64,000 nt of DNA from an uncultured Bacilli bacterium (GCA_944350425.1 CALVOX010000005.1:26100-90099); one strand, 5' to 3'. Positions 1 to 59,367 are shown, numbered from the stretch's first letter. Notes: generated by a model not told the origin, from the letters alone. Translations and numbers: made by a program.

Positions 1-665
1 CTATCTAAAGCATAAGAGAATCTCATTTTTGCATCAAATAATGCGTCACTAGTTTGTTTTTGCTCAACATTAGTTGTCTTTGGTTCAATAATTCTTGAGA
101 AATTATCTAAGAACAAATCCTTATCTTTTTCGTTTTGATTTAATAAATCAACAACTAAAGTCAAATTATTACCGCTCAAAGAAGATGTAATCTTATAATT
201 TTTCTTTGAAATACCAATTTTTCCAAGTAAAGTTTTTGTTGAACGAACAATGCCTTCAACGTGGTCATCTTCTTTCATATCATAAGTAAAGCTAATATGG
301 AAATCAAAGAATGTAACAAGCGGAACTTCAACCTTTAAGTTTAAAAGTGGAAATTCAACATTTTTATAAATAGTCATATGAGGATAAAGTGCGTAATTTT
401 GGAAAACTAAGCCAATTCCTCTTTTTTCAGGCGAAAGATTAGTAACTTCTTCTTCACCAAACCAAACTTCCCCACTTGTTGGAGTTTGTAAACCAGAAAT
501 CATATATAGAGTTGTTGATTTACCACAACCAGAAGGTCCAAGCAAGCCAACTAAAGTACCGTCAGGAACAGTTAAATCAAAATCATCAACTGCAACAGTG
601 TCTTTAATATGCTTTTTTGGATTTCCTGGGAAAACCTTTGTTATGCCCTTAAGTTTAATTTCCAT
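1..665 (-). CDS. ABC transporter ATP-binding protein (MalK/PotA-like importer ATPase), N-terminal part only; C-terminus lies beyond the window edge
   Basis: Absent from the ORF track because no stop falls in the window. Minus-strand ATG at 663-665 with AAAGGAG 6 nt upstream. Hand translation MEIKLKGITKVFPGNPKK...GTLVGLLGPSGCGKSTTLYMISGL (Walker A)...GIGLVFQNYALYPHMT (Q-loop). More than 100 aa without ABC motifs follow before the window ends. Confidence 0.85.
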   Translation of the reverse strand, partial: MEIKLKGITKVFPGNPKKHIKDTVAVDDFDLTVPDGTLVGLLGPSGCGKSTTLYMISGLQTPTSGEVWFGEEEVTNLSPEKRGIGLVFQNYALYPHMTIYKNVEFPLLNLKVEVPLVTFFDFHISFTYDMKEDDHVEGIVRSTKTLLGKIGISKKNYKITSSLSGNNLTLVVDLLNQNEKDKDLFLDNFSRIIEPKTTNVEQKQTSDALFDAKMRFSYALD

Positions 666-676
666 ATATAACTCCT

Positions 677-2212
677 TTATTTACGAATGATAAGTGTTCC
701 GTCATCAATAACATCTTGGTTAATTTTAAGTTTATCTCTTCTTCTCTTCTCAGCATTATTTTTAGCTGCGATAACAAAGTATCTAATAAAGTAACCAACA
801 AGAATAATACTTGCGACACCAAGAACAATAATATAAGGATCTGTTGGATTATAAACAACGAGTGAGTTTGCAAATGTTGTCGACCTAATCACAATAAAAA
901 CAACTAACAGCAATACTGACTCAATTGTTAAATAGCCCATCGTAGCAGTTGTAGCATAAGATTTTGTATTCATTCTCTTAAATTCATCGTTTCTATTCTT
1001 TTTCTTTAAGTAGAAATATGAAGGAACAACAATTCCTAAGAATATTAATGTCGATAGACCAAATGTTAAACCGACAATTAGATTATAATTAATATTAAAT
1101 GTACCTGTAACTTCACTCGAAATAGTAACTCCCGAAGAATCTTTTAAATCTTCCATTCCAGTATAAATACGACCAAATCTTTGATTGAAAGTTGTTCTAT
1201 TTAAATCTCTTCCAGTATCTGGATTATAAATTCCTAATTGATAGTATAAATCATAAATTTCTACTTTTTCTATATCACTGGCATCAATATTTTCAAAAAG
1301 TAAAACAACTTGACCACCGCCTGTAACTTCATATTGCATAGAGGTTGATTCTAATCTTTGGATTGTGCCATCTTTACGTGTTAATACGAACTCTGTATCA
1401 CCACCAAAGGAAAGAATACTTCTAATATAATATCTTCCATCGTTAATATAATCTTCATATTCCATATAAGCTCTAGCAGTAGTTGCGTTTAACGATTCAT
1501 AAAGTGCTCTTCCTCTATCATCGACATTAAATGCAAAAGTAGAATAGCCAGAGAAATTGCTGCTACCTTTATAACTTAATTTAAAAAAATCTTCAGAATT
1601 ATATATTGGAGCAAAAACATTTGCATCTAATGATGTAGTTATACATGCAGAATATGTTGGATTATCTAAATCTACAGTTCTTGTATCGGTGTTATAAGGA
1701 AAAATATTAAAGAGTTCAATACCCATATCATAAAGGACTTCTTCGCCATAAGCTATGTCAATGTCACAATAAGTGTTTAAAGAATTAGCACCTAAAGAAG
1801 AACCTAGCCCATCATAATTATTGTTTTGTTGAGCCTTATTAATTGCTGCGCTTCTTTGAACGATTTGACCATCAGTTTGTTTCACATAAAACCTTAAAGA
1901 TGCAGGTAAATATTCATCACCCTCGCCTAAATAACCGACATAATAGTTATTTTGTAAATTTGCTGTTTCGGAAAAATTAATTAAAACTTGAAACGATGCA
2001 CTTAATTCAGTAACAGCATATGATCTAAGTTGGACAGTCAAGTCAGCATTTAATGTACCTAGTTCAGTATCGATTTCATTATTTTCATGAACGATATCAC
2101 TTCTTGAAGTAGTTTCAACTAATGAAACATTAGACTTATTTGAAGTAAATGAACAAGTAGCTACCCCTATAAAAAGGTATAAAAAACTCAAAGCTAATTT
2201 TTTAAACTTCAT
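677..2212 (-). CDS. Lipoprotein-like surface protein with three C-terminal transmembrane helices, unknown function
   Basis: Signal peptide with lipobox (LFIGVATC/S), a polar ectodomain of about 385 aa, three hydrophobic helices and a basic tail. The stop is 11 nt upstream of the ABC ATPase start. No family recognised. Confidence 0.6.
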   Translation of the reverse strand: MKFKKLALSFLYLFIGVATCSFTSNKSNVSLVETTSRSDIVHENNEIDTELGTLNADLTVQLRSYAVTELSASFQVLINFSETANLQNNYYVGYLGEGDEYLPASLRFYVKQTDGQIVQRSAAINKAQQNNNYDGLGSSLGANSLNTYCDIDIAYGEEVLYDMGIELFNIFPYNTDTRTVDLDNPTYSACITTSLDANVFAPIYNSEDFFKLSYKGSSNFSGYSTFAFNVDDRGRALYESLNATTARAYMEYEDYINDGRYYIRSILSFGGDTEFVLTRKDGTIQRLESTSMQYEVTGGGQVVLLFENIDASDIEKVEIYDLYYQLGIYNPDTGRDLNRTTFNQRFGRIYTGMEDLKDSSGVTISSEVTGTFNINYNLIVGLTFGLSTLIFLGIVVPSYFYLKKKNRNDEFKRMNTKSYATTATMGYLTIESVLLLVVFIVIRSTTFANSLVVYNPTDPYIIVLGVASIILVGYFIRYFVIAAKNNAEKRRRDKLKINQDVIDDGTLIIRK

Positions 2213-2320: not shown

Positions 2321-3322
2321 TTAAAGTTTCCTAGTTGGATTAAAATCACTCAATTTCATTCGATTTTCTTCTTTCGAAACTTCGAATTTATCTTTAAAAA
2401 CTTTTGTTCCATAAGTATCGATTTCAATGATTCCTAGCATATAATCGTGGAAATTTTGCTTTTTCATAGAAAAAGCAGACATGGATAAAGAGATAATTAA
2501 AGGAATACCTAAGGTTGCAACCGATAAAATCACTTCGAGAAATAAAAAGATTACGAATCTTAAAGTAAACTTCCAAAATTTAACGTTATAATTATTTGAA
2601 TCAAGTAGCCCAATTCTCATTGAAAGTCTTCCTAAAGTTTTTCTTCCTCTCCAAAAAATTAAAGGAATAACATAAAACGTAATTATTGCCGAAAAAACGA
2701 TTCCACATGGAATTTCGACAAAAAATAACATATAAGATAAAAACTTTTGATAATCTAATACATTAGGTGTTTTAATAACAAATTCAGCTAAAGCAATATT
2801 ATCAATATAAGGCATGTAAACATTGTTGTTATATTGAGCAATAGGGATGTTTGCCTCTAAATTTTTAACTACTTCTCCGTTTTCGTTTTTAATAAAATAA
2901 GATTCATTGTTATAAGTGAGGTCACTTCTTGAAATTAATTCTAAATATTCATTTGTTAATTCTTCTTTATATTCAGGAAGTGAATCAAAAAAATCATATA
3001 TTCTAGTTGTTAAGAATGTTTCGATTTCGCTAGAAGACATATCTTTTCGATAGTTGATATAAGTAACAATATCTTCGACACGGTCTCTATCACTTGAATA
3101 AATATATAAAGATGAATTTACTTGAGCGACTTCTAAATTATGGTTAATTTCATAAAATTTTGGAGTAGCTTCTACTATTCCTTTTGCTCCCATAAAAAGA
3201 AGTAAACCTAAAATAGCAAAAACGACGAAGTCAATAATCATCGCTCCAAACTTTTGTGAGAATCTCGCACGATAATAAGTCAAGTCTATTTTCTTTTTTG
3301 TTTCCACGTGATTATTTTCCAT
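2321..3322 (-). CDS. RDD-family membrane protein with large extracytoplasmic insert (cassette 2, b-type)
   Basis: N-terminal R..FGAMIIDFVVF TM1, an insert of about 150 aa, then a TM bundle with WRGRKTLGRLSMRIGLL and C-terminal QNFHDYMLG. This is the RDD-domain pattern. The start overlaps the upstream gene by 11 nt. Confidence 0.6.
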   Translation of the reverse strand: MENNHVETKKKIDLTYYRARFSQKFGAMIIDFVVFAILGLLLFMGAKGIVEATPKFYEINHNLEVAQVNSSLYIYSSDRDRVEDIVTYINYRKDMSSSEIETFLTTRIYDFFDSLPEYKEELTNEYLELISRSDLTYNNESYFIKNENGEVVKNLEANIPIAQYNNNVYMPYIDNIALAEFVIKTPNVLDYQKFLSYMLFFVEIPCGIVFSAIITFYVIPLIFWRGRKTLGRLSMRIGLLDSNNYNVKFWKFTLRFVIFLFLEVILSVATLGIPLIISLSMSAFSMKKQNFHDYMLGIIEIDTYGTKVFKDKFEVSKEENRMKLSDFNPTRKL

Positions 3323-4433
3323 AACCTAATTCTTCATAATATTGGTTTAAACTTGATTCATCTACTACTATTGAATTAGTAGTGATTTCTTTAAGTGATG
3401 TATTAAATGTTGTAAAAATTGTAATAAACAGATTTATAACAACAATAATTAAAGCGATTAAAGATGGTAAATACAGGATTGGCAAAGAGAATAAATAAGA
3501 TAAACCTACTCTAAGAAAAGGAATTAAAAACATTAAAGTCATAGCATCGATTACTTTAAATAACGATACACTAATAACCATATTTCTTTTTAAATAAGAC
3601 ATATCATTTTTATTTATTCTTTCAACTTTTAATATTTTTTCAATTAAAGTTTGTCTTTTATTATTTGTTAAAGGAATAACAAAATATAAAACGACACATG
3701 TAATAACAAATGAAATATAAGAACAGATTATATAATCGTTTTGTAAAACATATTCGTTATCTTCTATATCGTTTCTAAGCGATAAATAAGAGTAAGTTCC
3801 ATCAAGTGATTTTAAATCATTAAGAGCAATATCATCAGTTAAAGCACCAAAAAGTTTAACAAATACATTATCTCGAAAATTATTAAAATCTTCATAAGCT
3901 TCAGTTGACATCTCATCACCTTCAAGATAGTTATGTGAGAAAGCTTCTTTATATTCTTCTTTTAGTTTATAAGTACCTAAAGAAGTAAAAGATGAGGTAT
4001 CAAAATATTCTTCTCCATAAAGAAGATAAAACTCATTGATTCTATCAACTTTATCTTCTTTATAGTTCACAACATAATTTACAAAAATTTCTTTATTTTC
4101 ATCTTCTTTATCTTCAAAAACATAATATTTAATTAATAAAGAATTTGTATATTCCAAACTATCGTTAATGTTATAAACATTAGTGTTATCTTCATAAAAA
4201 AGTAATTCTCTTTCATAAAGAAGTCTAAATATTTTTTCTTGAGAAGATGAAATATTTTCGGTTATTTGATCATATTTTATTATTGGTCTAGAAATTTGAA
4301 AGATTACTAATTCGAAAAGAATAGTCGAAATAATTAAAGTTAAAAATATTTCTCCTAAAAATACTAAAATTCTTCTTCCTACCTTTGTTGGGTATATATC
4401 TATATGTTTTTTATTCTCTTCGTTAATTTCCAT
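3312..4433 (-). CDS. RDD-like membrane protein with large extracytoplasmic insert (cassette 2, a-type)
   Basis: N-terminal VGRRILVFLGEIF TM1, an acidic/aromatic ectodomain of about 200 aa, then a C-terminal TM bundle with KRQTLIEKILKVERI and a ..SLKEITTNSIVVD tail. Paralogous in layout to 6313-7503. Confidence 0.55.
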   Translation of the reverse strand: MEINEENKKHIDIYPTKVGRRILVFLGEIFLTLIISTILFELVIFQISRPIIKYDQITENISSSQEKIFRLLYERELLFYEDNTNVYNINDSLEYTNSLLIKYYVFEDKEDENKEIFVNYVVNYKEDKVDRINEFYLLYGEEYFDTSSFTSLGTYKLKEEYKEAFSHNYLEGDEMSTEAYEDFNNFRDNVFVKLFGALTDDIALNDLKSLDGTYSYLSLRNDIEDNEYVLQNDYIICSYISFVITCVVLYFVIPLTNNKRQTLIEKILKVERINKNDMSYLKRNMVISVSLFKVIDAMTLMFLIPFLRVGLSYLFSLPILYLPSLIALIIVVINLFITIFTTFNTSLKEITTNSIVVDESSLNQYYEELGYGK

Positions 4434-4493
4434 CTTAAATATTAAACATTATAAAAGAGGAATTAACAATAAAGAATTTATGTAGCTTACTTA

Positions 4494-5092
4494 CTAATCT
4501 AAAAAATATCTACGGCTTAAATATAAAATAATTTCCACAAAATTTGAAGATAATAATAATAATGCCGATAAAAGTATAGCAAAGGATAAAACCATCAAAA
4601 TCAGAGATACAATATATTTAATTCTATCAATCATTAGCGCCTTTCCATAAAAAACCAAAGCTGAAAATACATAAGCAATTGAAAATAAACTAATACACAA
4701 AAACAATAATGCTGATACGAGAAAAAATATAGTCCATATATCAGTAAGGTAGCGTCTATAGGTATCTACTTTGTTTAAGTTATAAATTGTCAGAATTAAG
4801 ACTAAGAAAAATATAGAAGAAATAATAGATAATAAATTGAAAAAATTTATTTTAGTGAATTTATTAGATCTTGAACATTGTTTGTCCTTATATTCAGCCA
4901 TTATTTCGTCTTTGTCTTTATCACTAAACTCAAAATAATTTGTTATTCTTAATAATTTTTCGAAAGACGGAGAAAAATTATATTTTTTTATTTGTTTTAT
5001 TTCTTTATCAGTTAAAGATAAATCTGATTTTAAAACATCTAAATCAAGCTTTCTTTCATTAATTTGTCTAAAATTTTAAATTCTAATACCAT
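4494..5092 (-). pseudogene. Disrupted XRE-type HTH / multi-TM membrane protein gene (frameshifted or interrupted)
   Basis: GGAGG plus 5 nt plus ATG (5090-5092) opens MVLEFKILDKLMKESLI*, with stop at 5039-5041. A neighbouring frame reads NFRQINERKLDLDVLKSDLSLTDKEIKQIKKYNFSPSFEKLLRITNYFEFS, which is HTH_3-like, running straight into the 135-aa 3-4 TM ORF 4494-4901. That frame is closed upstream by TAA at 5076-5078. Confidence 0.55.
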
Positions 5093-5264
5093 ATTTACCT
5101 CCAATAAACTTTTTTGCTTCCTTCAATCGAGTGCTCATTTCCTATATAAATTATATCTTTTTAGCCCGCTTCAGCTTCTACTTCGATTGATTCCATCGAC
5201 ACAAATTCTTCTTAATTTTTATCTCTTTGATAATTCTCATATTCAACGTGTCCATTCTTCATAG

Positions 5265-5363
5265 CTAATTTCCAGGAACAAACATAAAACTGTTTTCTAA
5301 ATTTTTAAATGAGCAAAGAGAAAGGAAGATTAAAGCCATGCTCAAAAAAGATTTAATTTTCAT
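5265..5363 (-). CDS. 32-aa mini-lipoprotein-like ORF or remnant of a decayed lipoprotein gene
   Basis: AGGAGG 6 nt upstream of the ATG. Product MKIKSFLSMALIFLSLC/SFKNLENSFMFVPGN has a signal peptide and lipobox Cys. Downstream frames contain short broken ORFs. Confidence 0.3.
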   Translation of the reverse strand: MKIKSFLSMALIFLSLCSFKNLENSFMFVPGN

Positions 5364-5396
5364 CTTTTTCCTCCTACATTTGTTACTCTTATTATT

Positions 5397-6329
5397 CTAA
5401 TTTTTATAATTCTCGTAAATGAACTCGTTATAATCCTTATAAAACTTCTTATTTTCATAAGATAAAGAGTAAGTATTAGTAATATATTCATTAAAATTTT
5501 GATGCGTTTTAGATAAAACCATCATTCCAAAAGAAAAGATTAAAGGGATAAAGAAAGTTAGCAAAGATAATATATTTTCAATAAAGAAATTAATTAAAAA
5601 TTTAACTAAATATCTTCTTTTAGATAAACACATTCCATTAACGCCTAAACTACCATATTTAAATATTAGTTTAGAAAGAGTTAAATTACCACGTGGTAAG
5701 ATAAAAACAGGAACAATAAGGTAAAGTATAAGATAAGATATAATATAAGAAGATACTATTCCAATAATCTCTAAATTAGTAAGATTAGAAGAAGTTAAAC
5801 GATATGTTTCGTTATTTAAAAAGTACCCGCTTGATTCATCTAATACCTTTACATAGAAACTATAAATAGATGAATAAGATGCATTAATATTAATTTCATA
5901 TTCTTTACTTTCTTCATCATAAATAAATATCTCAGGATTATCGTGTTTATATTTTTCTAATGTTTCTTTACCTATATTTGAGGTCTTGCTATAAATATTT
6001 AAATCGATATAAAAATAATTTAGTCTATTATCTATTTCATTAATTTTATATTCATAAGTATAATCTTTATTTGAATCTAAATATTCATCAATTCTTAGTA
6101 TTTTATCATCATCTTTAACATATAATTTAGATTCTAATAAGATATTATTTATAGTATTTAGTTTATTTTCATAGTAACTAGAATTATGTAAGATTAAAAA
6201 ATAAGAAGAATATAAAATTAATGAAAGTAAAAGTAAAAATATAATATCTAAAATACTAGAAATAATTCTTTTAGATACTTTTACTTCATCATAATGTAGT
6301 TCTACTTTTTTATTACTTACTTGTTCCAT
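5397..6329 (-). CDS. RDD-family membrane protein with large extracytoplasmic insert (cassette 1, b-type)
   Basis: N-terminal KRIISSILDIIFLLLL TM1, an N/Y/K/E-rich insert, then a TM bundle with LPRGNLTLSKLIFKYGSLGV and C-terminal QNFNEYITN. Overlaps the upstream gene by 17 nt. Confidence 0.6.
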   Translation of the reverse strand: MEQVSNKKVELHYDEVKVSKRIISSILDIIFLLLLSLILYSSYFLILHNSSYYENKLNTINNILLESKLYVKDDDKILRIDEYLDSNKDYTYEYKINEIDNRLNYFYIDLNIYSKTSNIGKETLEKYKHDNPEIFIYDEESKEYEININASYSSIYSFYVKVLDESSGYFLNNETYRLTSSNLTNLEIIGIVSSYIISYLILYLIVPVFILPRGNLTLSKLIFKYGSLGVNGMCLSKRRYLVKFLINFFIENILSLLTFFIPLIFSFGMMVLSKTHQNFNEYITNTYSLSYENKKFYKDYNEFIYENYKN

Positions 6330-7503
6330 TGTTATTAGTACTAATATTATATTCTTCTTTATCTTTAATTATTATCTTACTTAAATAATTAATCATTGTT
6401 TGTTTATTTTTATTAAAATAAGAATATATCGCATTTAAGATCGATAAAAGTAAAGTAAAGATAATAATTACTAAAAAAGATATATTAAAAAAAGATACAT
6501 TTAATAAGTTAAAAGAAGAATAAAAGAATAGATATACAAAGAATAAGATATAAATATTAAATATAAAGCTTAAAACTAAGGATATTAAATATTGATATAA
6601 CTTTAGTTTACTTTTATTAGTTTTTTTATTTATTCCAATAACTTTAAATAGCTTATATATAAAATTAGTATCAGATTTAAAGATTAATCTAGGAAGTAAC
6701 TCTAGCAATAAAAAAGATATGAAATATGAAATAAATATTTCCACTAATAAAAGTAAACTGTATTTATTCGTGTTTTCATCAAGTTTAATTAAATTATCTT
6801 TATATATATTGTTATTACTTTCAAAATCTTCGATTAATTCATTATAAAATAAGCTATAGTTACTTAAATATTCATCATATAGTTCTTTATATTTAGAAGA
6901 ATAATCTTCTTCAAATACATATTTAATTAAGCTTAAAGCTATATCATCTTGATATTCAAAATAAGATTTACCTAAATAATTATTCTTATAATATTTAGAT
7001 AAATATTTATTAAATAAAGAATTAATAAATTCATTATTTTGAGTATCATTAATCTTTAAATATGTAGGTCTATAGGTAAATAAATAATAATTTATATTTT
7101 CTTCTTTACTTAGATCATTAAATTCTTGATAGTTAGATACTAATTCTCCTCTAACATCAATATTATTATTAACTATATAAGTTTTTAATTCTCTTCTTAT
7201 TTCTTTATAAATAACTTCATCGACATCTAATAATACTTTATTATTACTTTCTTCTTCATATTCAAGTAAAGAAGAGGATAAAGCTTCATGATATAAATTA
7301 TTTCTAATCGATACATTATTGTTAATAAGATCTTTAGAGACATTAGTTAAATCTCCTAAGGGTTTAATAATTAAACCTTGGATAAAACATACTAAAATTA
7401 GTAATGAAAAAATAGAAGCTAGGTAGATTAAAAACCTTCTACTTCTTTTAGTTACTAAATTATTAGAATAATCTTTATTTAATTCATTAACTTTTATTTT
7501 CAT
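6313..7503 (-). CDS. RDD-like membrane protein with large extracytoplasmic insert (cassette 1, a-type)
   Basis: N-terminal RSRRFLIYLASIF TM1, an ectodomain of about 200 aa, then a C-terminal TM bundle with FIYKLFKVIGINKK and QTMINYLSKIIIKD. The ATG is 5 nt after the SIR2-like stop, with no SD. Confidence 0.55.
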   Translation of the reverse strand: MKIKVNELNKDYSNNLVTKRSRRFLIYLASIFSLLILVCFIQGLIIKPLGDLTNVSKDLINNNVSIRNNLYHEALSSSLLEYEEESNNKVLLDVDEVIYKEIRRELKTYIVNNNIDVRGELVSNYQEFNDLSKEENINYYLFTYRPTYLKINDTQNNEFINSLFNKYLSKYYKNNYLGKSYFEYQDDIALSLIKYVFEEDYSSKYKELYDEYLSNYSLFYNELIEDFESNNNIYKDNLIKLDENTNKYSLLLLVEIFISYFISFLLLELLPRLIFKSDTNFIYKLFKVIGINKKTNKSKLKLYQYLISLVLSFIFNIYILFFVYLFFYSSFNLLNVSFFNISFLVIIIFTLLLSILNAIYSYFNKNKQTMINYLSKIIIKDKEEYNISTNNNGTSK

Positions 7504-7508
7504 TAATA

Positions 7509-8840
7509 TTAATCAATTATTTTTAACCAATCATTAATTTCTTTATAATCATTAATCCAAATAGTAATTAAATCATAGGTAAAGAAATAATTAGTTACAT
7601 CTTTATATGTTTTGGCATCAAATCCTTCTTCTCTTTTCATGAATATAAAATTAAACTTTAAATGATTTGATGCTAACTCTAATAATCTTTTCATATTTGG
7701 ATCTGTTAATGATATTCCGATAAAAATAGATGTATTAAATATAAAATCATGTAGTTGTTTTGCAATATTCCATGAATAAGGATTGTTATATAAGTAATAA
7801 TATTCTGATTCATTAAAGATTAATGAATCAGTAAATTTAGATTCATTATATCGATCAAAAGGAAGTAATCCATGAACATGGAAGATTGATACTTTAGCTT
7901 CTTTATTTAAGAAAGAATTATCATCGTAAGTTGTGTTATATAATATTCCTCTTTTCTTTAAAATATATTCTAAATTAGTATCGTAGTTATATGTAATTAC
8001 CGTAGTTTTATCGTGTCTAGCAATATAATCAGTAATTATATATAAGGTTGTTTGTTTATTAGAAAAGAAATCAATATCTGGTTTAAATAGATATAATTCT
8101 TTATTTAATTCTTTATATGTATCAAATCCGTTAGTTTTTAATATTTTAGAAGATACAAAAAGCTCACCACCAATATAATGTTTAATTTCTTTAATTCGAT
8201 CTAAACTACCTTCATAAAACTTTTCGTTTAAGCTTACAGTTAACGATTTCCAATCTTTAGCACCATAATCAGCATTTATTCCACTGCCTAAAACTAAATC
8301 TACTTCTGTTCGATAAGTAAATAACTTTAATAAGAAATGAATAAAAGATTCTTCATTATCTTCGTTTTTGTCTAAATTTAATAAATATAAAATATCATCT
8401 TTAAATATATTACCTTTAGCTTCATCTTGTTTGAATTTAAGATTGTTTCTATCTTTTAAATAGTAATCAATCTTTTTTCCTTCCATAAATCCGATTGCCC
8501 TAAAGTTATATTCATCGAAATATACATTTAAAGATGATTGAGGAATATATGGATCTAGATAATCAACATTTTTAACTTTAAAGAAATTGACATTACCCAT
8601 AACGTCAATTTCTTCTAAATTTGCTTTCCATAAGGAATTAAAAATATGAATAACATATTTATGAATGTGTTCATGATTTGAAAATACAACTACTTTAAAG
8701 TTACATTTAGGATCAAAATGAAAACCAAATGATCTAGAAATAATCGATTTATAACTAACTCCATTTAAATAAAATAAATAAAGTAATATTAAGTAACATT
8801 TCTTTTGGAATATATAATCTTCTCTTTCTATTTTTTTCAT
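7509..8840 (-). CDS. SIR2-like (SIR2_2 / DHS-like NAD-binding) domain protein with unknown N-terminal domain of about 180 aa; putative NAD+ hydrolase
   Basis: Ordered motifs VLGSGINADYG (aa 183-193), VITYNYDTNLE (281-291), SIFHVHG (318-324) and FIGISLTDPNMKRLL (373-387). These match the SIR2_2 signature, including the putative catalytic Asn and His. AAGGAAG SD lies 11 nt upstream of the ATG. Confidence 0.7.
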   Translation of the reverse strand: MKKIEREDYIFQKKCYLILLYLFYLNGVSYKSIISRSFGFHFDPKCNFKVVVFSNHEHIHKYVIHIFNSLWKANLEEIDVMGNVNFFKVKNVDYLDPYIPQSSLNVYFDEYNFRAIGFMEGKKIDYYLKDRNNLKFKQDEAKGNIFKDDILYLLNLDKNEDNEESFIHFLLKLFTYRTEVDLVLGSGINADYGAKDWKSLTVSLNEKFYEGSLDRIKEIKHYIGGELFVSSKILKTNGFDTYKELNKELYLFKPDIDFFSNKQTTLYIITDYIARHDKTTVITYNYDTNLEYILKKRGILYNTTYDDNSFLNKEAKVSIFHVHGLLPFDRYNESKFTDSLIFNESEYYYLYNNPYSWNIAKQLHDFIFNTSIFIGISLTDPNMKRLLELASNHLKFNFIFMKREEGFDAKTYKDVTNYFFTYDLITIWINDYKEINDWLKIID

Positions 8841-8923
8841 AAATATTAATGCTTCCTTACCATTAAAAATTCTAACACGAAAGCATTAATTTAAGTAAAC
8901 ATTATTACAATTTTAATTCTGGT

Positions 8924-8952
8924 ATCTTAAAAAGAGCAAAACTTAAAGTCAA
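8924..8952 (-). promoter_or_regulatory. Putative sigma-70-type promoter of the SIR2-like operon
   Basis: On the minus strand: TTGACT (8947-8952), a 17-nt spacer, then TAAGAT (8924-8929). Lies about 80 nt upstream of the SIR2-like ATG. Confidence 0.4.
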
Positions 8953-9272
8953 AAAAATACTGATAGAACTATTGTAACTAAAAAATTATTAGCGGTTAAA
9001 AATGTAGGTACCAGTATTTTATTAGCTAATAAAGGGGTCGCTTAAGCAACTATTCTTAAAGCATTCGTAACACTAAATTAGCCTTAAAAATTAGCTTATA
9101 TTAACGAAAACAATTATATTAGGAGAAAATTAGTAATTTCAAAATTGAACCATAATCATCTATAAGTAATAGTTTTCACGTGGTAATTGAAAGCAATGGT
9201 AATTATCTGATATTCAAAAACAAAATCTAATTAAAATTAATGTCATTAATTTTATGTAAAATATATACCGAT

Positions 9273-9286
9273 TTTTCACGTGAAAA
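9273..9286. repeat. Perfect 14-bp palindrome TTTTCACGTGAAAA, one of three CACGTG-core sites in the 648-bp non-coding region
   Basis: Read directly. CACGTG occurs at 9177-9182, 9277-9282 and 9401-9406, all in 8841-9488. The first two are exactly 100 bp apart and share a TTTTCACGTG half. Confidence 0.6.
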
Positions 9287-9488
9287 CCCGTAAACACCAC
9301 TTTTTTCACTCTATTTAATATATATTAATATTTTGTTTAAAATTGTTAACGTTCGCTTTAAATTTATAAAGAAACAAACGCTCAATTTTAGTAATTTGCT
9401 CACGTGGAATAATATTTCTATCTCACTATCAAATGTTAAAAATATTTTTAAAGCAATTATCAACACTTTGTATTAAAATATACCTCGT

Positions 9489-15850: not shown

Positions 15851-16471
15851 TTAGTGCACTCCATTATTTTTAATTAATTCACTATATTCATTAATTTTAT
15901 CGTTCTTTAAACTTTGTTTTTTCAAACTTTTTAGGTAATTCTTAAAAGTATCTAGATTATATATATGATAATCAGAAATATTTTTTATATTATCAAATAA
16001 AGCTATAGATTTAACAGGGAATGTATTTTCATTAAACCAATCATCTTCTTTCTTAAGCAAAGATATGATTGAATCTTTAATTTTATTTAATGCTTCAAAA
16101 GGATTAGGTAAAGAAGCTTTATCGATTTGATTATCAATCGGGACAGTATTAGCTTTTGCATCCTTTGATTTATTTAAAACATTATTTTTACTTCTATTAG
16201 ATTTAAAAAATGACTTCTTTTCTTCTTTTACTGGCATTACAAACCAAAAAGGATCTTGCTCGCTATTTAAAGATAATACACCTTTAGCATCATAAATATT
16301 GATAACAAAAATACCGACCTTAGAAACAATAATTAAGTCACACTTAGTCTTATTATCTAACGCGTAATTTAAAATAATATTTTCTTTAGTATAAAGAAAA
16401 TTATAAATTCTAAGAGCAATTTTTTCTTTATATGTATGATTAAATAGTCCCATCAGTATTTTTCCTAACAC
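15851..16471 (-). CDS. NERD-domain-like protein (apparently degenerate nuclease motif)
   Basis: KCDLIIVSKVGIFVINIYDAKG...DPFW...LPNPFEAL follows the NERD pattern, but the E-x-K position reads N-I-Y. The ORF starts at GTG; an ATG at 16453 is an alternative. Confidence 0.5.
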   Translation of the reverse strand: MLGKILMGLFNHTYKEKIALRIYNFLYTKENIILNYALDNKTKCDLIIVSKVGIFVINIYDAKGVLSLNSEQDPFWFVMPVKEEKKSFFKSNRSKNNVLNKSKDAKANTVPIDNQIDKASLPNPFEALNKIKDSIISLLKKEDDWFNENTFPVKSIALFDNIKNISDYHIYNLDTFKNYLKSLKKQSLKNDKINEYSELIKNNGVH

Positions 16472-16512: not shown

Positions 16513-17055
16513 CTAGTTTAATTTGTCTTTGTTAAGAAGATAGAGTAAGAAAGCGTGAGTTGTCTTAGCATCTTTAATTTGGCCATTTACAATCATCTCT
16601 TTAATTTCGTCTTCGCTTTTGTAAAAAACTTCAACAAGTTCGTTCTCATCTAGATGTGTTTCGGTCATTTTTAAGTCTTTTGCAAAATATAAATCAATTA
16701 TTTCGTTAGTATAAGCAACACTAGGATAAGTTGAACCAAGATAGACTAAAGTATTTGCTTCATATCCTGTTTCTTCCTTTAATTCTCTAAAAGCAGTCAC
16801 TTTTCCGTCTTCATTAGGATCACTTTTTCCAGCAGGAAATTCAATAATTACATCATCATAAGGATATCTAAATTGTCTTTCTAATATAAATTTACCGTCA
16901 TTATTTAATGCGATTACGCAAGCTGCTTTTCCTTTATTAATAAACTCTCTTGTAGATTTATGACCGTTAGGACAAAGGACTTCGTCTTTATGTACTTCTA
17001 ATAAATGTCCTTTAAAAACAATTTCATCGGTAATTTTCTTTTCTTTTAAATCCAT
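16513..17055 (-). CDS. NUDIX hydrolase, ADP-ribose pyrophosphatase-like
   Basis: Nudix box GKSDPNEDGKVTAFRELKEETGY. Size and N-terminal beta region resemble NudF/YqkG. Confidence 0.8.
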   Translation of the reverse strand: MDLKEKKITDEIVFKGHLLEVHKDEVLCPNGHKSTREFINKGKAACVIALNNDGKFILERQFRYPYDDVIIEFPAGKSDPNEDGKVTAFRELKEETGYEANTLVYLGSTYPSVAYTNEIIDLYFAKDLKMTETHLDENELVEVFYKSEDEIKEMIVNGQIKDAKTTHAFLLYLLNKDKLN

Positions 17056-50436: not shown

Positions 50437-50550
50437 TTTCACGTGAAAACTTTTTAGTTAAACAAAAAAATAAAAATTCAATATTGAGAAATCCTTAAAT
50501 ACCAATAGATTTTTAACTTCCTTTAATATATAATATTAAAGGAGTTTTTT

Positions 50551-53975: not shown

Positions 53976-56507
53976 ATGTCAGAAGAAATAAAAGACGTTA
54001 TTGAAAGTGGTATTACACCATCTTTAAAAGATGAAGAAATTACTGAGCAAGTCAAAAACTCATTTCTAGACTATGCGATGAGTGTTATCGTTTCAAGAGC
54101 TCTTCCAGATGTAAGAGATGGTTTAAAACCTGTTAATAGAAGAATTATTTATTCAATGAATGAAAGTGGTTATACACCTGATAAACCATTTGTTAAATCA
54201 GCTAAAATCACCGGTGAAGTTATGGGTAAATATCACCCACATGGTAACGCTTCAATTTATACAGCTTTAGTTAGATTAGCTCAATATTTTTCAATGAGAT
54301 ATCCTCTTATTGACGGCCATGGTAACTTCGGTACGATGGACGGAGATGAGGCTGCAGCAGAAAGATATACCGAAGCCAAACTGAAGAAATTATCTCTGGA
54401 AATGGTAAGAGATATTAAATACAATACGGTAGATTTTTCCCCAAACTATGATGGTACCGAAATAGAGCCTAGTGTATTACCAACACACTTTCCTAATTTA
54501 CTTGTCAATGGAAGTGATGGAATTGCTGTTGGTATGGCTACTAAAATGCCTCCTCATAATTTAAGAGAAGTTATTGATGGAATTATTGCTTATAGAAAAA
54601 ATCCAGATATAACAGTTGAAGAATTAATGAAGTATATTAAAGGACCTGATTTTCCTACAGGCGGAATTATTTATGGTTTAAACGGAATTAGAGAAGCTTA
54701 TGCTACTGGAAAAGGCACTTTTAGGTTAAGAGCAAAAACCGAAATAGTTGAAAAGAAAGATGGCAGAAGCACAATTATTATTCGTGAAATACCTTATCAA
54801 GTTATTAAATCTTCCATCGTTAAACATATTGGTGAACTTTATAGAGAAAAAAAGATTGAAGGTATAACTTCAATTAAAGATTTTTCAAAAGTAGATGTAG
54901 ATATTGAAATAGAGTGTAAAAAAGATGCAATCCCATCCCTAATTCTTAATCAATTATTTAAAAATACTCAACTTGAAATATCTTATGGAATAATTAATTT
55001 AGCAATTGTAAATGGTGTTCCTAAAGTTTTATCTTTGAAAGACTTACTTAAAAATTATATTGATTTCCAAGTTGAAATAATTGAAAAAAGAACAAATTTT
55101 CTTTTAGATCGTGATGAAAAAAGAAAACATATCCTAGATGGATTGTTAATTTGTAGAGACAATATCGATGAAGTTGTTGCAATGGTAAAAGCTAGTGAAA
55201 ATAAGGAAGATTTTATAAGAAGAGCAACTGAATCTGAATTTCATTTTTCAAATGCTCAAGCAGAAGCTATATTTGTTTTACAACTTGGTAGATTAACTCA
55301 TCTGGAAGCTACAAAACTTATTGACGAAAAAACACAACTTGAAAAAAACATCGAATCATATCACCATATTCTTGAGTCACGTGAAAACATTTTAGATGTA
55401 ATGGAAAAAGAATTATTAGAAATTAAAGAAAAGTATGGCGACGATAGAAAGAGCGAAATCTCAAATCAAATTGTTTCTATAGATGATGAAGATTTAATTC
55501 CTGAAGAAGATGTTGTCTTTACTTTAACAAATAAAGGTTATATCAAAAGAATGCCAATTTCTGATTTCAAGAGACAAAGAAGAGGTGGCAAGGGTGTTAA
55601 AGGTTTGACTTCCTATGAAGATGATGAAGTGAATAAAATCATTTATTCAAATACTCATACTGATATTTTACTTTTCTCTAATTTTGGAAAAGTATATAGA
55701 ATTAAAGGTTATTCAGTTCCTGAAGGAAGTAGATCTTCAAAAGGTGTTAATTTAATTAATATTTTAAATTTAGATAAAGGAGAAAATATTATTTCAATCG
55801 TTCCAACAAGCGAATACGAAAATAAATATTTGTTCTTTGCAACAAGAAAAGGACTCGTAAAAAGAACAAAATTAGAGGAATTCATAAGAATTAATTCTAA
55901 TGGTAAATATGCTATTAAATTCAACGAAGATGATACTTTACTTGATGTAAAAGTTACTGATGGAAATGCAAAAATACTTCTTGCAGCTAGTAATGGACAA
56001 CTTTGTATGTTTAAAGAAGAACAAATTAGAGTTAGTGGTAGAACTTCTCATGGAGTCTTTGGCATGAAACTTGAAGGTGCTAATTTAATTTCTTTAGCTA
56101 CTTCAAATGAAGGAAACTTAGTTTTAGTTACAAGTGAAAATGGATTAGGTAAACTTTCACCAATTGAAGATTATCGCGAAACAAAACGTAATTCAAAAGG
56201 TGTTAAAACTATCAAAATCACTGATAAAACTGGTGATTTATGCGCTATGAAAGTAGTTAATGGTGATGAAGATTATGTTACTATCACAAAAGATGGACTT
56301 GTTGTTAGAGCTGCTTTAAGTGATGTTAGAATTTGTGGAAGAAATTCACAAGGCGTAAAAATGGTTAATTTCAAAAATGAGAATGATAAAGTAATTTCAA
56401 TTACCATCGTTCCTCACGAAGAAGAAAATGATGTAGAAATAGAAGGTGATTTATCAATAAACGAAAATGAAGATGTCTCTATAGAAGATATAGGTGAAGA
56501 TTTATAA
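53976..56507 (+). CDS. gyrA: DNA gyrase subunit A
   Basis: GKYHPHG and the [10 protein letters not shown] active-site Tyr region, plus C-terminal beta-pinwheel repeats. Confidence 0.98.
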
Positions 56508-58812: not shown

Positions 58813-58823
58813 TATAATATTAA

Positions 58824-58909
58824 AGCCGTTGCGATTCAATACTACGAACCTGGTCAGGATGGGAACATAGCAGCCATAAGTAGATCCATTGAATGTGCGA
58901 CGGTTTTTT
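58824..58909 (+). ncRNA. ffs: Small (4.5S-type) signal recognition particle RNA
   Basis: GCCGUUGCGAUUCAAU pairs with AUUGAAUGUGCGACGG. The apical part CCUGGUCAGGAUG-GGAA-CAUAGCAGCC matches the conserved domain IV (GGUCAGG...GNRA...AGCAGCC). Ends in a U-tract. Lies between serS and tadA. Confidence 0.85.
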
Positions 58910-58914
58910 AAATT

Positions 58915-59367
58915 ATGATTAAAAAAGATTACGAGAAATATATGGATTTAGCTTTAGAAGAAGCTAAGAAAGCCTTTAAAAATAATGATGTGCCTGTTGG
59001 GTGTATTATTTTAGATAAAAACAATAACTTACTTTCTAAAGGTTACAACCAAAAGGAAAAAGAACAAGATTTAACATTGCATGCTGAAATTGTTGCGATA
59101 AAAGATGCTTCAAAGCAGATAAATAATTGGAGATTAGATAAGTGTACTTTAGTTGTTACTTTATCACCTTGTTTGATGTGTCTTGGAGCAATAATATCTT
59201 CGAGAATTAAAAGAATTGTCATAGGAACTTATGATGATTCTAAGGAATTTGATTTTAGATTATTTAAAGATTTATTGTTCGAAAACAATATTGAATTGAT
59301 AGATGGTATAAAAGAAAAAGAATGTTCCGATATTATTAAAGAATTTTTCAAAACAAAAAGATTTTAA
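58915..59367 (+). CDS. tadA: tRNA-specific adenosine deaminase
   Basis: HAEIVAI and PCLMCLGAI zinc-binding motifs. Confidence 0.93.
   Translation: MIKKDYEKYMDLALEEAKKAFKNNDVPVGCIILDKNNNLLSKGYNQKEKEQDLTLHAEIVAIKDASKQINNWRLDKCTLVVTLSPCLMCLGAIISSRIKRIVIGTYDDSKEFDFRLFKDLLFENNIELIDGIKEKECSDIIKEFFKTKRF

What the first reader, a model, noticed from the sequence alone, without database searches (positions are those of the whole stretch)
5397..8840. SIR2-like NADase candidate translationally chained to an RDD-type membrane-protein pair: possible undescribed membrane-coupled defence module
Seen: the 443-aa ORF 7509-8840(-) carries, in order, VLGSGINADYG (aa 183-193), VITYNYDTNLE (281-291), SIFHVHG (318-324) and FIGISLTDPNMKRLL (373-387). 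Established: this GxG / NYD / HG / G-x-S-L-x-D succession is the signature of the SIR2_2 (DHS-like NAD-binding) domain. That domain is used by ThsA, DSR1/DSR2, SIR2-HerA and SIR2-pAgo effectors, where the Asn and His are needed for NAD+ hydrolysis. Both appear present here (N285, H323). Seen: the first 180 aa or so match nothing I recognise. None of the usual partners (TIR, HerA, pAgo, SLOG, STAND ATPase) is in the window. Its TAA (7509-7511) is 5 nt from the ATG of a 396-aa RDD-like membrane protein. That gene in turn overlaps a 310-aa RDD-type gene by 17 nt, and neither junction has an SD, which implies coupled translation. Inference: a cytosolic NADase effector with a heteromeric membrane component. 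This architecture is not among the named SIR2 systems.
Basis: partly seen in the sequence, partly recalled or inferred. Interest (0 to 1): 0.8.

Follow-up and report, generated by a model that had tools for sequence, protein, structure and literature searches.

The report
Conserved SIR2 gene heading transporter operon
The phage-defence-type, NAD-cleaving sirtuin enzyme is really there, but it is a strongly conserved, vertically inherited gene of a whole group of small-genome gut bacteria placed in front of a membrane-transport operon, not part of a mobile three-gene defence module.

Summary
ORF 7509-8840(-) is a true SIR2_2 protein (Pfam 51.5 bits) whose Asn285, Asp287 and His323 align with the ThsA catalytic residues. 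Its N-terminal 178 aa match nothing known. Both downstream genes are RDD-type membrane paralogues, joined by a 5-nt gap and a 17-nt overlap.

The defence-module reading is not supported. The SIR2 gene has full-length orthologues (52-97% identity) in 116 matches in a one-genome-per-species collection, all checked ones from RFN20/CAG-288-type gut Bacilli. Its divergence tracks EF-Tu (rho 0.80), and dN/dS is 0.047. It usually lies between the str operon (rpsG-fusA-tuf) and a UgpC/MalK/PotA-class ABC importer, with no defence or mobile genes nearby.

The RDD pair belongs to the importer operon. Four lineages carry the RDD pair and the importer without SIR2; in three the pair directly follows str-operon genes. 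At least three clades carry SIR2 away from any RDD gene.

The nearest outside relatives (about 25% identity) are sporadic single genes; two of the three looked up sit in classic defence islands.

Best reading: a defence-derived, stand-alone latent NADase that became fixed at the 5' end of a pre-existing operon. Its role in the cell is unknown. Interest is moderate.

The parts
7509..8840 (-). 443-aa SIR2_2 protein. It is the orthologue of a lineage-wide single-copy family.
   Evidence: Pfam PF13289 at 51.5 bits. Foldseek top hits are ThsA, KomC, DSR2 and SIR2-HerA. 196 full-length homologues. dN/dS 0.047 against L001. No TM segment.
8307..8840 (-). N-terminal domain (aa 1-178), an alpha/beta fold private to this family. 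Presumed regulatory or sensor domain.
   Evidence: AF2 model pLDDT 81.7. No PDB fold match (best E 0.16). No PDB sequence-profile hit at E<=10. No Pfam or NCBIfam hit. No hhalign relation to the N-domains of the nearest SIR2 relatives. Mean column identity 63% within the family.
7509..8306 (-). SIR2 catalytic domain (aa 179-443). It holds the GxG loop (G185, G187), N285 (codon 7986-7988), D287 and H323 (codon 7872-7874).
   Evidence: Aligned to EcThsA 8wc0. These residues are invariant in A1 and A2, and conserved in at least 97% of 79 orthologues.
6313..7503 (-). Xa: 396-aa divergent RDD-type membrane protein. It has one N-terminal TM, a hydrophilic loop of about 195 aa, and 3-4 C-terminal TMs.
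   Evidence: hhalign of the X family against the RDD family gives 99.4% probability and E 1e-21. 9 of 14 orthologues hit Pfam RDD. TM scan. dN/dS 0.096.
5397..6329 (-). RDDa: 310-aa RDD-family membrane protein, paralogue of RDDb.
   Evidence: Pfam RDD at 21.7 bits, sub-threshold. 27% identity to RDDb, E 1e-15. 29 of the 32 family hits carry precomputed PF06271. dN/dS 0.24.
4494..4901 (-). 135-aa three-TM protein lying between the two X-RDD pairs.
   Evidence: ORF. TM scan. Conserved only in the closest relative, L001.
3312..4433 (-). Xb: second X-type (RDD-like) membrane protein.
   Evidence: Similarity to Xa at the N-terminus, E 3e-5. Member of the X family. In L002 and L005 the b-type pair directly follows SIR2.
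2321..3322 (-). RDDb: 333-aa RDD-family protein.
   Evidence: Pfam RDD at 44.5 bits.
677..2212 (-). 511-aa polytopic surface protein (g677). It has a signal-like N-terminus, an exposed domain of about 370 aa and 3 C-terminal TMs. In many relatives it follows the RDD pair.
1..665 (-). 5' part of the UgpC/MalK/PotA-class ABC importer ATPase, cut by the window edge. It begins the importer part of the operon (ATPase, two BPD_transp_1 permeases, SBP_bac_8).
   Evidence: tblastn gives 57% identity to the L013 634-aa ATPase over residues 1-219. Pfam and NCBIfam results for orthologues.
8841..9488 (.). 648-nt intergenic region upstream of SIR2. It holds the best promoter-like site (9142-9113, minus strand, 11 of 12 matches) and three CACGTGA sites.
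   Evidence: This region is only about 135 nt long in the relatives with 74% SIR2 identity.

Best explanation
ORF 7509-8840 encodes a soluble two-domain enzyme. A private N-terminal alpha/beta domain (aa 1-178) is joined to a ThsA/DSR-class SIR2 domain whose NAD-binding loop and catalytic Asn285, Asp287 and His323 are intact.

Shown:
- It is the orthologue of a single-copy gene inherited vertically through a large clade of genome-reduced gut Bacilli. The record titles name Onthovivens, Enterosoma and CAG:288, and GTDB places Enterosoma in RFN20/CAG-288.
- It is under strong purifying selection.
- It heads a transcription unit that runs into two paralogous RDD-type membrane genes, often a third polytopic surface protein, and a UgpC/MalK/PotA-class ABC importer.
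- The RDD pair and the importer form an independent unit. In three SIR2-less lineages this unit follows str-operon genes directly.

Inferred:
- SIR2 came from the pool of sporadic single-gene SIR2 defence proteins, which includes its nearest relatives.
- It landed between tuf and the RDD-pair/importer operon and became fixed there.
- It most likely still acts alone as a latent NAD+-cleaving enzyme. The N-domain would hold it off until a conserved cue appears, and NAD+ loss would then cause growth arrest or abortive infection.
- Its closeness to the RDD genes reflects the insertion site and shared transcription, not a physical SIR2-membrane complex.
For: Domain and catalytic site: (106 positions conserved in at least 97% of 79 orthologues, including G185, G187, N285, D287, H321 and H323).

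Vertical inheritance:
- 116 relatives in a one-genome-per-species collection, all full length.
- The whole family collapses into one 50%-identity cluster. The next hits drop from 756 to 165 bits or less.
- SIR2 identity correlates with EF-Tu (rho 0.80) and EF-G (rho 0.70). Median identities are SIR2 68%, EF-Tu 86%, EF-G 82%, X 27% and RDD 29%.
- dN/dS is 0.047, like DUF2804 (0.048) and an ABC ATPase (0.049).

Context:
- rpsG-fusA-tuf lies upstream in 16-22 loci, and an ABC importer lies downstream.
- The window neighbours are metabolic or housekeeping genes.
- There are no viral copies.
- In L018 a terminator follows tuf and a TATAAT box precedes SIR2.

Independence of the RDD pair:
- L094/L095, L128, L103 and L092/L093 carry X-RDD plus the ABC importer without SIR2 and without SIR2 remnants.
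- L128 is nested within the SIR2-bearing set, and L103 looks like an outgroup.
- SIR2 lies next to PsuG-PsuK, MalQ-MiaB or NfeD/SPFH in three clades, and directly next to the importer without X-RDD in L056, L060 and L062.

Defence ancestry: the nearest relatives are rare single genes (clusters of 1-6 members). Two of the three looked up sit in islands with integrases, OLD+UvrD, ThsA+TIR, nSTAND, RloB/AAA_21 and a methyltransferase. None of the three has an RDD neighbour.
Against: - No enzymatic or phenotypic data exist, and the lineage is uncultured.
- A strongly conserved N-domain, fixation, and low dN/dS are unusual for a phage sensor. They fit a physiological role equally well.
- SIR2-X adjacency is kept while the upstream neighbours change at least six times. 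Stop/start overlaps of 4 and 19 nt recur. This could reflect selection for co-expression with the membrane proteins.
- The polarity of events (insertion against loss) rests on one outgroup-like contig, judged by EF-G identity only.
- Genomes that lack SIR2 at this locus may carry it elsewhere.
- The full-length AF2 model is only of moderate quality (pLDDT 68.5).
Confidence: 0.5

Rival explanations
1. SIR2, Xa and RDDa form one three-protein defence module. The fast-evolving, surface-exposed RDD heterodimer senses phage attack at the membrane and switches on the cytosolic NADase.
For: - Co-oriented, tightly packed or overlapping SIR2-X-RDD occurs in 48 of about 76 loci, and the genes stay near each other in about 9 more.
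- The adjacency persists while the upstream context changes.
- The pattern of a conserved effector (68% identity) with fast-evolving exposed partners (27-29%) resembles immune systems.
- The SIR2 domain is of the defence class, with intact catalytic residues.
Against: - The RDD pair occurs with the ABC importer and no SIR2 in at least four lineages.
- SIR2 occurs without X-RDD nearby in at least three clades, and next to the importer alone in L056, L060 and L062.
- The X-RDD pair is inverted in place in cluster 11.
- Which pair (a-type or b-type) abuts SIR2 differs among close relatives.
- There are no PADLOC hits for the membrane proteins.
- The locus is not an island, and no mobile or defence genes lie nearby.
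- The three looked-up closest SIR2 relatives have no RDD neighbour.
- The RDD proteins expose only short cytosolic tails and loops.
Confidence: 0.13
2. A housekeeping enzyme. The SIR2 protein was exapted for a physiological NAD-dependent reaction tied to nutrient import or nucleotide/NAD salvage. Examples would be processing an imported dinucleotide, or ADP-ribosylating or deacylating a transporter or translation component. It would no longer serve immunity.
For: - Presence across the lineage, clock-like divergence and dN/dS 0.047.
- The N-domain is as conserved as the catalytic domain.
- The fixed position heads an importer operon that ends with an SNase-type nuclease in L056 and L094.
- Neighbours in other clades are nucleotide-salvage genes: PRK-GuaA-HD upstream and PsuG-PsuK downstream.
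- Vertebrate FAM118 proteins are a precedent for a lineage-fixed SIR2_2 clade (PMC12700824).
Against: - All characterised structural relatives are NAD+-depleting immune effectors.
- No substrate or pathway gap has been identified.
- The gene is absent from the locus in a nested lineage (L128), so it is probably not essential.
- The neighbour associations are weak. Reduced genomes are rich in salvage and transport genes in any case.
Confidence: 0.22
3. A decaying or non-functional remnant whose position next to the RDD genes is accidental.
For: Nothing positive. It is considered only because no function is known and the gene is missing from the locus in some relatives.
Against: - The ORF is intact and full length in 116 matches.
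- dN/dS is 0.047.
- 106 near-invariant positions include every catalytic residue.
Confidence: 0.02

Closest known systems
ThsA (Thoeris type I effector, SIR2-SLOG/STALD), e.g. PDB 8wc0, 6lhx, 8btp
   Same: It is the best sequence match in the PDB (E 0.004), the best structural match (Foldseek E 8e-9) and the best PADLOC model. It shares the GxG loop, the NYD Asn and the HG His.
   Different: There is no C-terminal SLOG/STALD domain; instead a private N-terminal domain is present. No ThsB/TIR gene lies nearby. The locus is vertically inherited, not an island. Sequence identity is only 15-18%.
Uncharacterised SIR2 proteins of about 450-490 aa (unassigned N-domain plus SIR2_2) from Clostridia and Lactobacillales, e.g. 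Abiotrophia defectiva WP_314196846.1, P0312, P0362
   Same: These are the nearest relatives outside the family (E about 1e-42, 23-28% identity). They have the same length and domain order and the same 15 invariant residues.
   Different: They are sporadic (clusters of 1-6 members). Two of the three looked up sit in classic defence islands. Their N-domains are not detectably homologous to this one. None of the three has RDD or ABC neighbours.
DSR2, DSR1, SIR2-HerA and KomC (Kongming) SIR2 effectors
   Same: The SIR2 fold is shared (Foldseek E 1e-8 to 1e-6). The presumed chemistry, NAD+ hydrolysis, is also shared.
   Different: DSR proteins are about 1000 aa or longer, with C-terminal phage-protein sensors. 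SIR2-HerA and KomC need partner proteins that are absent here.
Vertebrate FAM118A/FAM118B (PMC12700824)
   Same: They are a SIR2_2-subfamily clade that is fixed in a lineage and vertically inherited, with tightly regulated NAD processing. This is a precedent for an antiphage-type sirtuin kept as a resident gene.
   Different: They are eukaryotic. No direct homology beyond the SIR2_2 domain was tested here. Their filament formation and A/B partnership are not known for this family.
RDD family (PF06271) membrane proteins
   Same: X and RDD have the N-terminal TM and C-terminal TMs of RDD proteins, and they (or their orthologues) match the Pfam model.
   Different: Here they occur as tandem paralogous pairs with a hydrophilic insert of 135-195 aa. 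They evolve very fast and are wired to an ABC importer operon. No function is established for the RDD family in general.

Membership tests
SIR2_2 (PF13289) / ThsA-DSR class sirtuin domain | Match to the family HMM above the curated cut-off | tested here: met
   51.5 bits against a 24.5-bit cut-off, E 1.5e-13, residues 280-405.
SIR2_2 (PF13289) / ThsA-DSR class sirtuin domain | Catalytic Asn (NYD) and His (HG) aligned with those of ThsA, plus the Rossmann GxG loop | tested here: met
   N285 and H323 align to EcThsA 8wc0. G185, G187, N285, D287 and H323 are invariant in A1 and A2 and in 79 orthologues.
SIR2_2 (PF13289) / ThsA-DSR class sirtuin domain | SIR2 fold | tested here: met
   Foldseek gives 98 PDB hits at E<=0.001. 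The top hits are ThsA, KomC, DSR2 and SIR2-HerA. The model pLDDT is only 68.5.
SIR2_2 (PF13289) / ThsA-DSR class sirtuin domain | NAD+ hydrolase activity | not testable with these tools
   This needs a biochemical assay.
Thoeris (ThsA + ThsB) | SLOG/STALD signal-binding domain on the SIR2 protein | tested here: not met
   No STALD or SLOG hit. The protein ends with the SIR2 domain, and the PADLOC ThsA match covers only the SIR2 part.
Thoeris (ThsA + ThsB) | Adjacent TIR-domain ThsB gene | tested here: not met
   No TIR domain was found in the 7 downstream and 12 upstream gene products scanned, nor in the relatives' neighbours scanned.
DSR1/DSR2 | Single protein of about 1000 aa or more, with an N-terminal SIR2 domain and a large C-terminal sensor | tested here: not met
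   The protein is 443 aa and its SIR2 domain is C-terminal.
SIR2-HerA / SIR2-pAgo (SPARSA) | Neighbouring HerA ATPase or short pAgo/APAZ partner | tested here: not met
   The neighbours are RDD membrane proteins, ABC importer genes and a BD-FAE hydrolase.
RDD family (PF06271) | HMM match for the 310-aa protein (5397-6329) | tested here: inconclusive
   The protein itself scores 21.7 bits, below the 24.1-bit cut-off. Its paralogue RDDb scores 44.5 bits, and 29 of 32 family hits carry PF06271. The feature is therefore met at family level.
RDD family (PF06271) | HMM match for the 396-aa protein (6313-7503) | tested here: inconclusive
   The protein has no Pfam hit itself. 9 of 14 orthologues hit RDD, and hhalign to the RDD-type family gives 99.4% probability and E 1e-21.
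Anti-phage defence system (generic genomic hallmarks) | Location in a variable island with other defence or mobile genes | tested here: not met
   The flanks are rpsG-fusA-tuf, PRK-GuaA-HD, BD-FAE, Fe-ADH, an ABC importer and similar genes. Synteny is conserved on both sides in relatives with 74-97% SIR2 identity.
Anti-phage defence system (generic genomic hallmarks) | Patchy, horizontally spread distribution | tested here: not met
   Divergence tracks EF-Tu and EF-G (rho 0.80 and 0.70). The family forms one 50%-identity cluster. There are no viral copies. Clean absence from the locus in L128, L094, L103 and L092 shows the gene is not strictly universal.
   SIR2 lacks an adjacent X-RDD in about 19 of 76 loci. 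X-RDD plus the ABC importer occurs without SIR2 in four lineages. Whole-genome co-occurrence could not be tested.

The most novel reading that the evidence does not exclude
A defence-type SIR2 NADase has been domesticated as a near-core gene of a whole family or order of gut bacteria, some of them wall-less. It would be functionally wired to a fast-evolving, surface-exposed RDD heterodimer that serves as its membrane sensor. This would be a resident membrane-to-NAD+-depletion immune or stress pathway, and would give the RDD family its first function.
Probability: 0.12. Interest if true: 0.8.

Novelty: new variant of a known kind. Interest (0 to 1): 0.42.

Why it matters
Defence-type sirtuins (ThsA, DSR, SIR2-HerA) are known as sporadic, island-borne suicide effectors. 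Here one of them has been kept for a long evolutionary time as a strongly conserved resident gene at a housekeeping-type locus. It occurs in at least 116 genomes of a one-genome-per-species collection, all checked ones from uncultured, genome-reduced gut Bacilli. It carries an N-terminal domain with no known relative.

If it still depletes NAD+, it would be a bacterial counterpart of the lineage-fixed vertebrate FAM118 sirtuins. It would then be a tractable case for asking how an abortive-infection enzyme becomes domesticated.

The work also corrects a tempting but wrong inference. Tight, recurrent gene chaining in reduced genomes does not by itself define a functional module. The RDD pair belongs to an ABC-import operon.

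Tried and rejected
1. N-domain as a degenerate PD-(D/E)xK nuclease. The lead was an FD...EIK motif in remote relatives against FDP.CNFK here. It was rejected. hhalign of the two N-domain profiles gives E 0.15-0.49. Foldseek gives nothing significant, only weak YaeQ, SPARDA and MspI hits at E>0.1. The PDB sequence-profile search gives 0 hits. Pfam finds nothing in the remote N-domains.

2. N-terminal helix 3-25 as a membrane anchor. Rejected: the maximum 19-residue hydropathy is 1.34, below 1.6.

3. Prophage or viral origin. The scan of IMG/VR viral contigs found no relative.

4. "No SD implies translational coupling". The base rate of SD-like motifs in the window is only 39%, so the argument carries little weight. 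Conserved tight spacing is the better evidence for co-transcription.

5. RDD-centred sampling of metagenomes. The two RDD alignments were too variable for the tool.

6. RDD family outside the lineage. The search returned only 32 hits, apparently all from the same lineage. This tool's sensitivity is limited for such fast-evolving proteins.

7. Rfam found no RNA element near the locus.

8. Literature search for "RDD family" plus "SIR2" found 0 papers.

9. NCBIfam has no model for SIR2, X or RDD.

Full report
OBSERVATION

The three ORFs exist exactly as described. The 443-aa product of 7509-8840(-) matches Pfam SIR2_2 well above threshold: 51.5 bits against a 24.5-bit cut-off, E 1.5e-13, residues 280-405.

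Its best solved-structure relative by sequence is EcThsA (8wc0). In that alignment the Asn of VITYNYD (N285) and the second His of HVHG (H323) fall on the ThsA NYD Asn and HG His.

An AF2 model has moderate quality (pLDDT 68.5). It finds ThsA, KomC, DSR2 and SIR2-HerA as the best PDB folds (E 8e-9 to 2e-6).

The junctions are as stated: TAA, 5 nt, then ATG at 7503, and a 17-nt overlap at 6313-6329. The remark about missing SD sequences is true. It carries little weight, because only 18 of 46 ORF starts in the window have an SD-like motif.

The "RDD-type" label is right at family level.
- The 310-aa protein is just under the Pfam cut-off (21.7 bits against 24.1).
- The 396-aa protein has no hit of its own.
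- Nine of 14 orthologues of the 396-aa protein hit RDD.
- The two families match each other over their full length by hhalign (99.4% probability, E 1e-21).
- 29 of the 32 relatives found with an RDD-family profile (A5, window RDDb first) carry PF06271.

Both proteins have one N-terminal TM, a hydrophilic loop of 135-195 aa, and three or so C-terminal TMs. The SIR2 protein has no TM.

The same strand continues downstream with:
- a 135-aa TM protein;
- a second, paralogous X-RDD pair (3312-4433 and 2321-3322);
- a 511-aa polytopic surface protein (677-2212);
- at 3-665, the start of an ABC ATPase (57% identical to its orthologue in L013).

In relatives the full unit reads SIR2, X, RDD, an optional 511-aa-type protein, a UgpC/MalK/PotA-class ATPase, two BPD_transp_1 permeases and SBP_bac_8.

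DISTRIBUTION

A search of 5.8 billion proteins gave 196 hits. The 120 best are nearly all 431-448 aa (one is 415 aa), cover 99-100% of the query, and are 55-100% identical.

In a one-genome-per-species collection, 116 loci encode a full-length relative at 52-97% identity. The titles name uncultured Bacilli or "Mollicutes", Ca. Onthovivens, Ca. Enterosoma and Clostridium sp. CAG:288. GTDB places Enterosoma in order RFN20, family CAG-288 (PMC8035907). RFN20 is a fast-evolving, partly peptidoglycan-deficient relative of Mycoplasmatales (PMC10868615).

In an exhaustive search of 1.84 billion cluster representatives, the whole family is a single 50%-identity cluster (756 bits). The next hits fall to 165 bits or less.

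INHERITANCE AND SELECTION

Across 18 loci that also carry fusA and tuf, SIR2 pairwise identity correlates with EF-Tu (Spearman 0.80) and EF-G (0.70). Median identities are SIR2 68%, EF-Tu 86%, EF-G 82%, X 27% and RDD 29%.

Against the closest relative (L001), dN/dS is 0.047 for SIR2. This equals DUF2804 (0.048) and an ABC ATPase (0.049). Xa gives 0.096, RDDa 0.24 and the 511-aa protein 0.19.

One hundred and six positions are conserved in at least 97% of 79 orthologues, including G185, G187, N285, D287, H321 and H323. The N-domain is nearly as conserved as the catalytic domain (63% mean column identity).

No copy is found on viral contigs.

GENOMIC CONTEXT

In 16-22 loci the gene lies directly after rpsG-fusA-tuf. 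In L018 a strong intrinsic terminator follows tuf and a TATAAT box precedes SIR2, so SIR2 starts its own transcription unit.

Other upstream contexts are PRK-GuaA-HD and, in the window's clade, a divergent BD-FAE hydrolase. In the window this is followed by Fe-ADH, DUF2804, an ABC-2 exporter, NERD, NUDIX, TrxB, an M13 peptidase and LysRS.

No integrase, restriction, TIR, HerA, pAgo or STAND gene appears near the locus in the window or in the relatives' neighbour genes that were scanned; one TnpB-like gene lies three genes downstream of SIR2 in L010. PADLOC matches only the SIR2 domain, and weakly. Synteny is kept on both sides in relatives with 74-97% SIR2 identity. This is not a variable island.

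IS THE TRIO A MODULE?

For coupling:
- SIR2 is followed on the same strand by X-RDD in 48 of about 76 evaluable loci.
- In 45 of those 48, the gap is 20 nt or less, or the genes overlap. Overlaps of 4 and 19 nt recur.
- This holds while the upstream neighbour changes repeatedly.

Against coupling:
- The exceptions are clade-specific rearrangements that leave SIR2 intact and equally conserved.
- X-RDD is inverted in place in cluster 11.
- The block is divergent in L046 and L057.
- An ABC ATPase is inserted between SIR2 and X in L030, L050 and L070.
- X-RDD is absent but the importer is kept in L056, L060 and L062.
- SIR2 sits beside PsuG-PsuK, MalQ-MiaB or NfeD/SPFH, with no RDD gene within 10 kb, in clusters 13, 16 and 17.
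- Among close relatives, either the a-type or the b-type pair abuts SIR2.

The reverse test is decisive. Four lineages carry the RDD pair and the ABC importer with no SIR2 and no SIR2 remnant.
- L094/L095: tuf, RDD, RDD, ATPase, permeases, SBP, SNase.
- L128: rpsG-fusA-tuf, a 90-nt gap, then X-RDD and the ABC genes.
- L103: rpsG-fusA, then X-RDD and the ATPase.
- L092/L093: a 572-aa HExxH-containing protein occupies the position before X.

By EF-G and EF-Tu identity, L128 is nested inside the SIR2-bearing set. L103 lies outside it. The RDD pair therefore belongs to the importer operon and does not need SIR2. SIR2 does not need to be beside the RDD pair.

ORIGIN

The nearest relatives outside the family have 23-28% identity and share 15 invariant residues. 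They are SIR2 proteins of about 450-490 aa from Clostridia and Lactobacillales, in clusters of 1-6 sequences.

Three were looked up.
- One lies between integrases, next to an OLD-family nuclease plus a UvrD helicase and a ThsA(STALD)/TIR pair.
- One lies among nSTAND3, RloB/AAA_21 and a methyltransferase.
- One lies near an HNH gene.
None has an RDD neighbour.

Their N-domains are not detectably related to this one. The N-domain here models confidently (pLDDT 81.7) but has no match in the PDB by fold or by sequence profile, and none in Pfam or NCBIfam.

MECHANISM

Shown: the SIR2 catalytic domain is intact and strongly constrained. The protein is soluble. It is co-oriented with the membrane and import genes, often overlaps them, and starts the unit.

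Inferred:
- A single-gene defence-type SIR2 was inserted between tuf and a pre-existing RDD-pair/importer operon, and was then fixed.
- It acts alone as a latent NAD+-cleaving enzyme gated by its N-domain.
- The conservation of that domain suggests a conserved cue, either endogenous or broadly shared.

Whether the outcome is abortive infection, stress-induced arrest or a metabolic reaction cannot be decided from sequence. The recurrent neighbours from nucleotide salvage and scavenging (SNase, PRK-GuaA-HD, PsuG-PsuK, and a NUDIX gene 8 kb away) are a weak lead towards physiology. Vertebrate FAM118 sirtuins are a precedent for a lineage-fixed SIR2_2 clade with tightly regulated NAD processing (PMC12700824).

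VERDICT

The finding is a new variant of a known kind. It is a ThsA/DSR-class sirtuin with an unassigned N-domain that has become a resident, near-core gene of a bacterial lineage. Interest is moderate at 0.42. The membrane-sensor reading keeps a probability of about 0.12.

Noticed in passing
window 9176-9182, 9273-9286, 9400-9406; also 50439-50446, 55377-55384, 61048-61055: CACGTGA occurs 11 times against 1.2 expected by chance. Three sites, about 100-124 nt apart, lie in the 648-nt intergenic region upstream of SIR2. One of them is the perfect 14-nt palindrome TTTTCACGTGAAAA. TCACGTGA palindromes recur elsewhere in the window. These may be the operator of an unidentified regulator.
   Followed up: partly
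window 5265-5363 (-): A 32-aa ORF (MKIKSFLSMALIFLSLCSFKNLENSFMFVPGN) lies just after the 310-aa RDD gene. It has one of the strongest SD sequences in the window (AGGAGG) and a signal-like hydrophobic N-terminus.
   Followed up: no
L006, L008, L022, L040, L042, L044, L048, L053, L080 and others: Many MAG records of the 'cleanbin' series are titled Bacteroides uniformis, Alistipes onderdonkii, Roseburia hominis, Parasutterella and similar names. Yet they carry this locus with the same synteny as the Bacilli-labelled (RFN20-type) records. The bins appear to be taxonomically mislabelled or contaminated.
   Followed up: partly
L001 18179-20080 and its orthologues (alignment A8); window 3-665 is the start of the same gene: The 632-634-aa form of the operon's ABC ATPase has a poorly conserved stretch of about 260 aa between the Walker A region and the signature/Walker B region. 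The 485-aa and 398-aa forms in other clades lack most of it.
   Followed up: no
L056 16476-18350; L094 7162-8556: A staphylococcal-nuclease-type (SNase) gene closes the ABC importer operon in two distant relatives. This hints that the importer scavenges nucleic-acid breakdown products. From memory (not checked here), mycoplasma nuclease/ABC operons such as the one containing mhp379 resemble this arrangement.
   Followed up: no
window 2321-7503 compared with L002-L005 and L074: The number of tandem X-RDD pairs varies among close relatives: one in L002 and L005, two in the window and L001, and two or three in L003, L004 and L074. The pair duplicates and is lost quickly.
   Followed up: partly
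L092 4111-5829: In one SIR2-less relative, the slot before X is filled by a 572-aa protein with no Pfam family but with an HExxH-like motif (IIHETGHMLG). It may be a secreted metalloprotease.
   Followed up: no
window 58818-58916 (+); 15851-16471 (-); 16513-17055 (-): Bacterial small SRP RNA (71.4 bits). A NERD-domain protein and a NUDIX hydrolase lie 7-8 kb upstream of SIR2. The NUDIX enzyme could in principle handle ADP-ribose, but no link was tested.
   Followed up: no
L010 14317-15525: A TnpB-like gene (Cas12f1-like TNB domain) lies three genes downstream of SIR2 in the MalQ-MiaB clade. It is the only mobile-element-type gene seen near any of the SIR2 loci.
   Followed up: no
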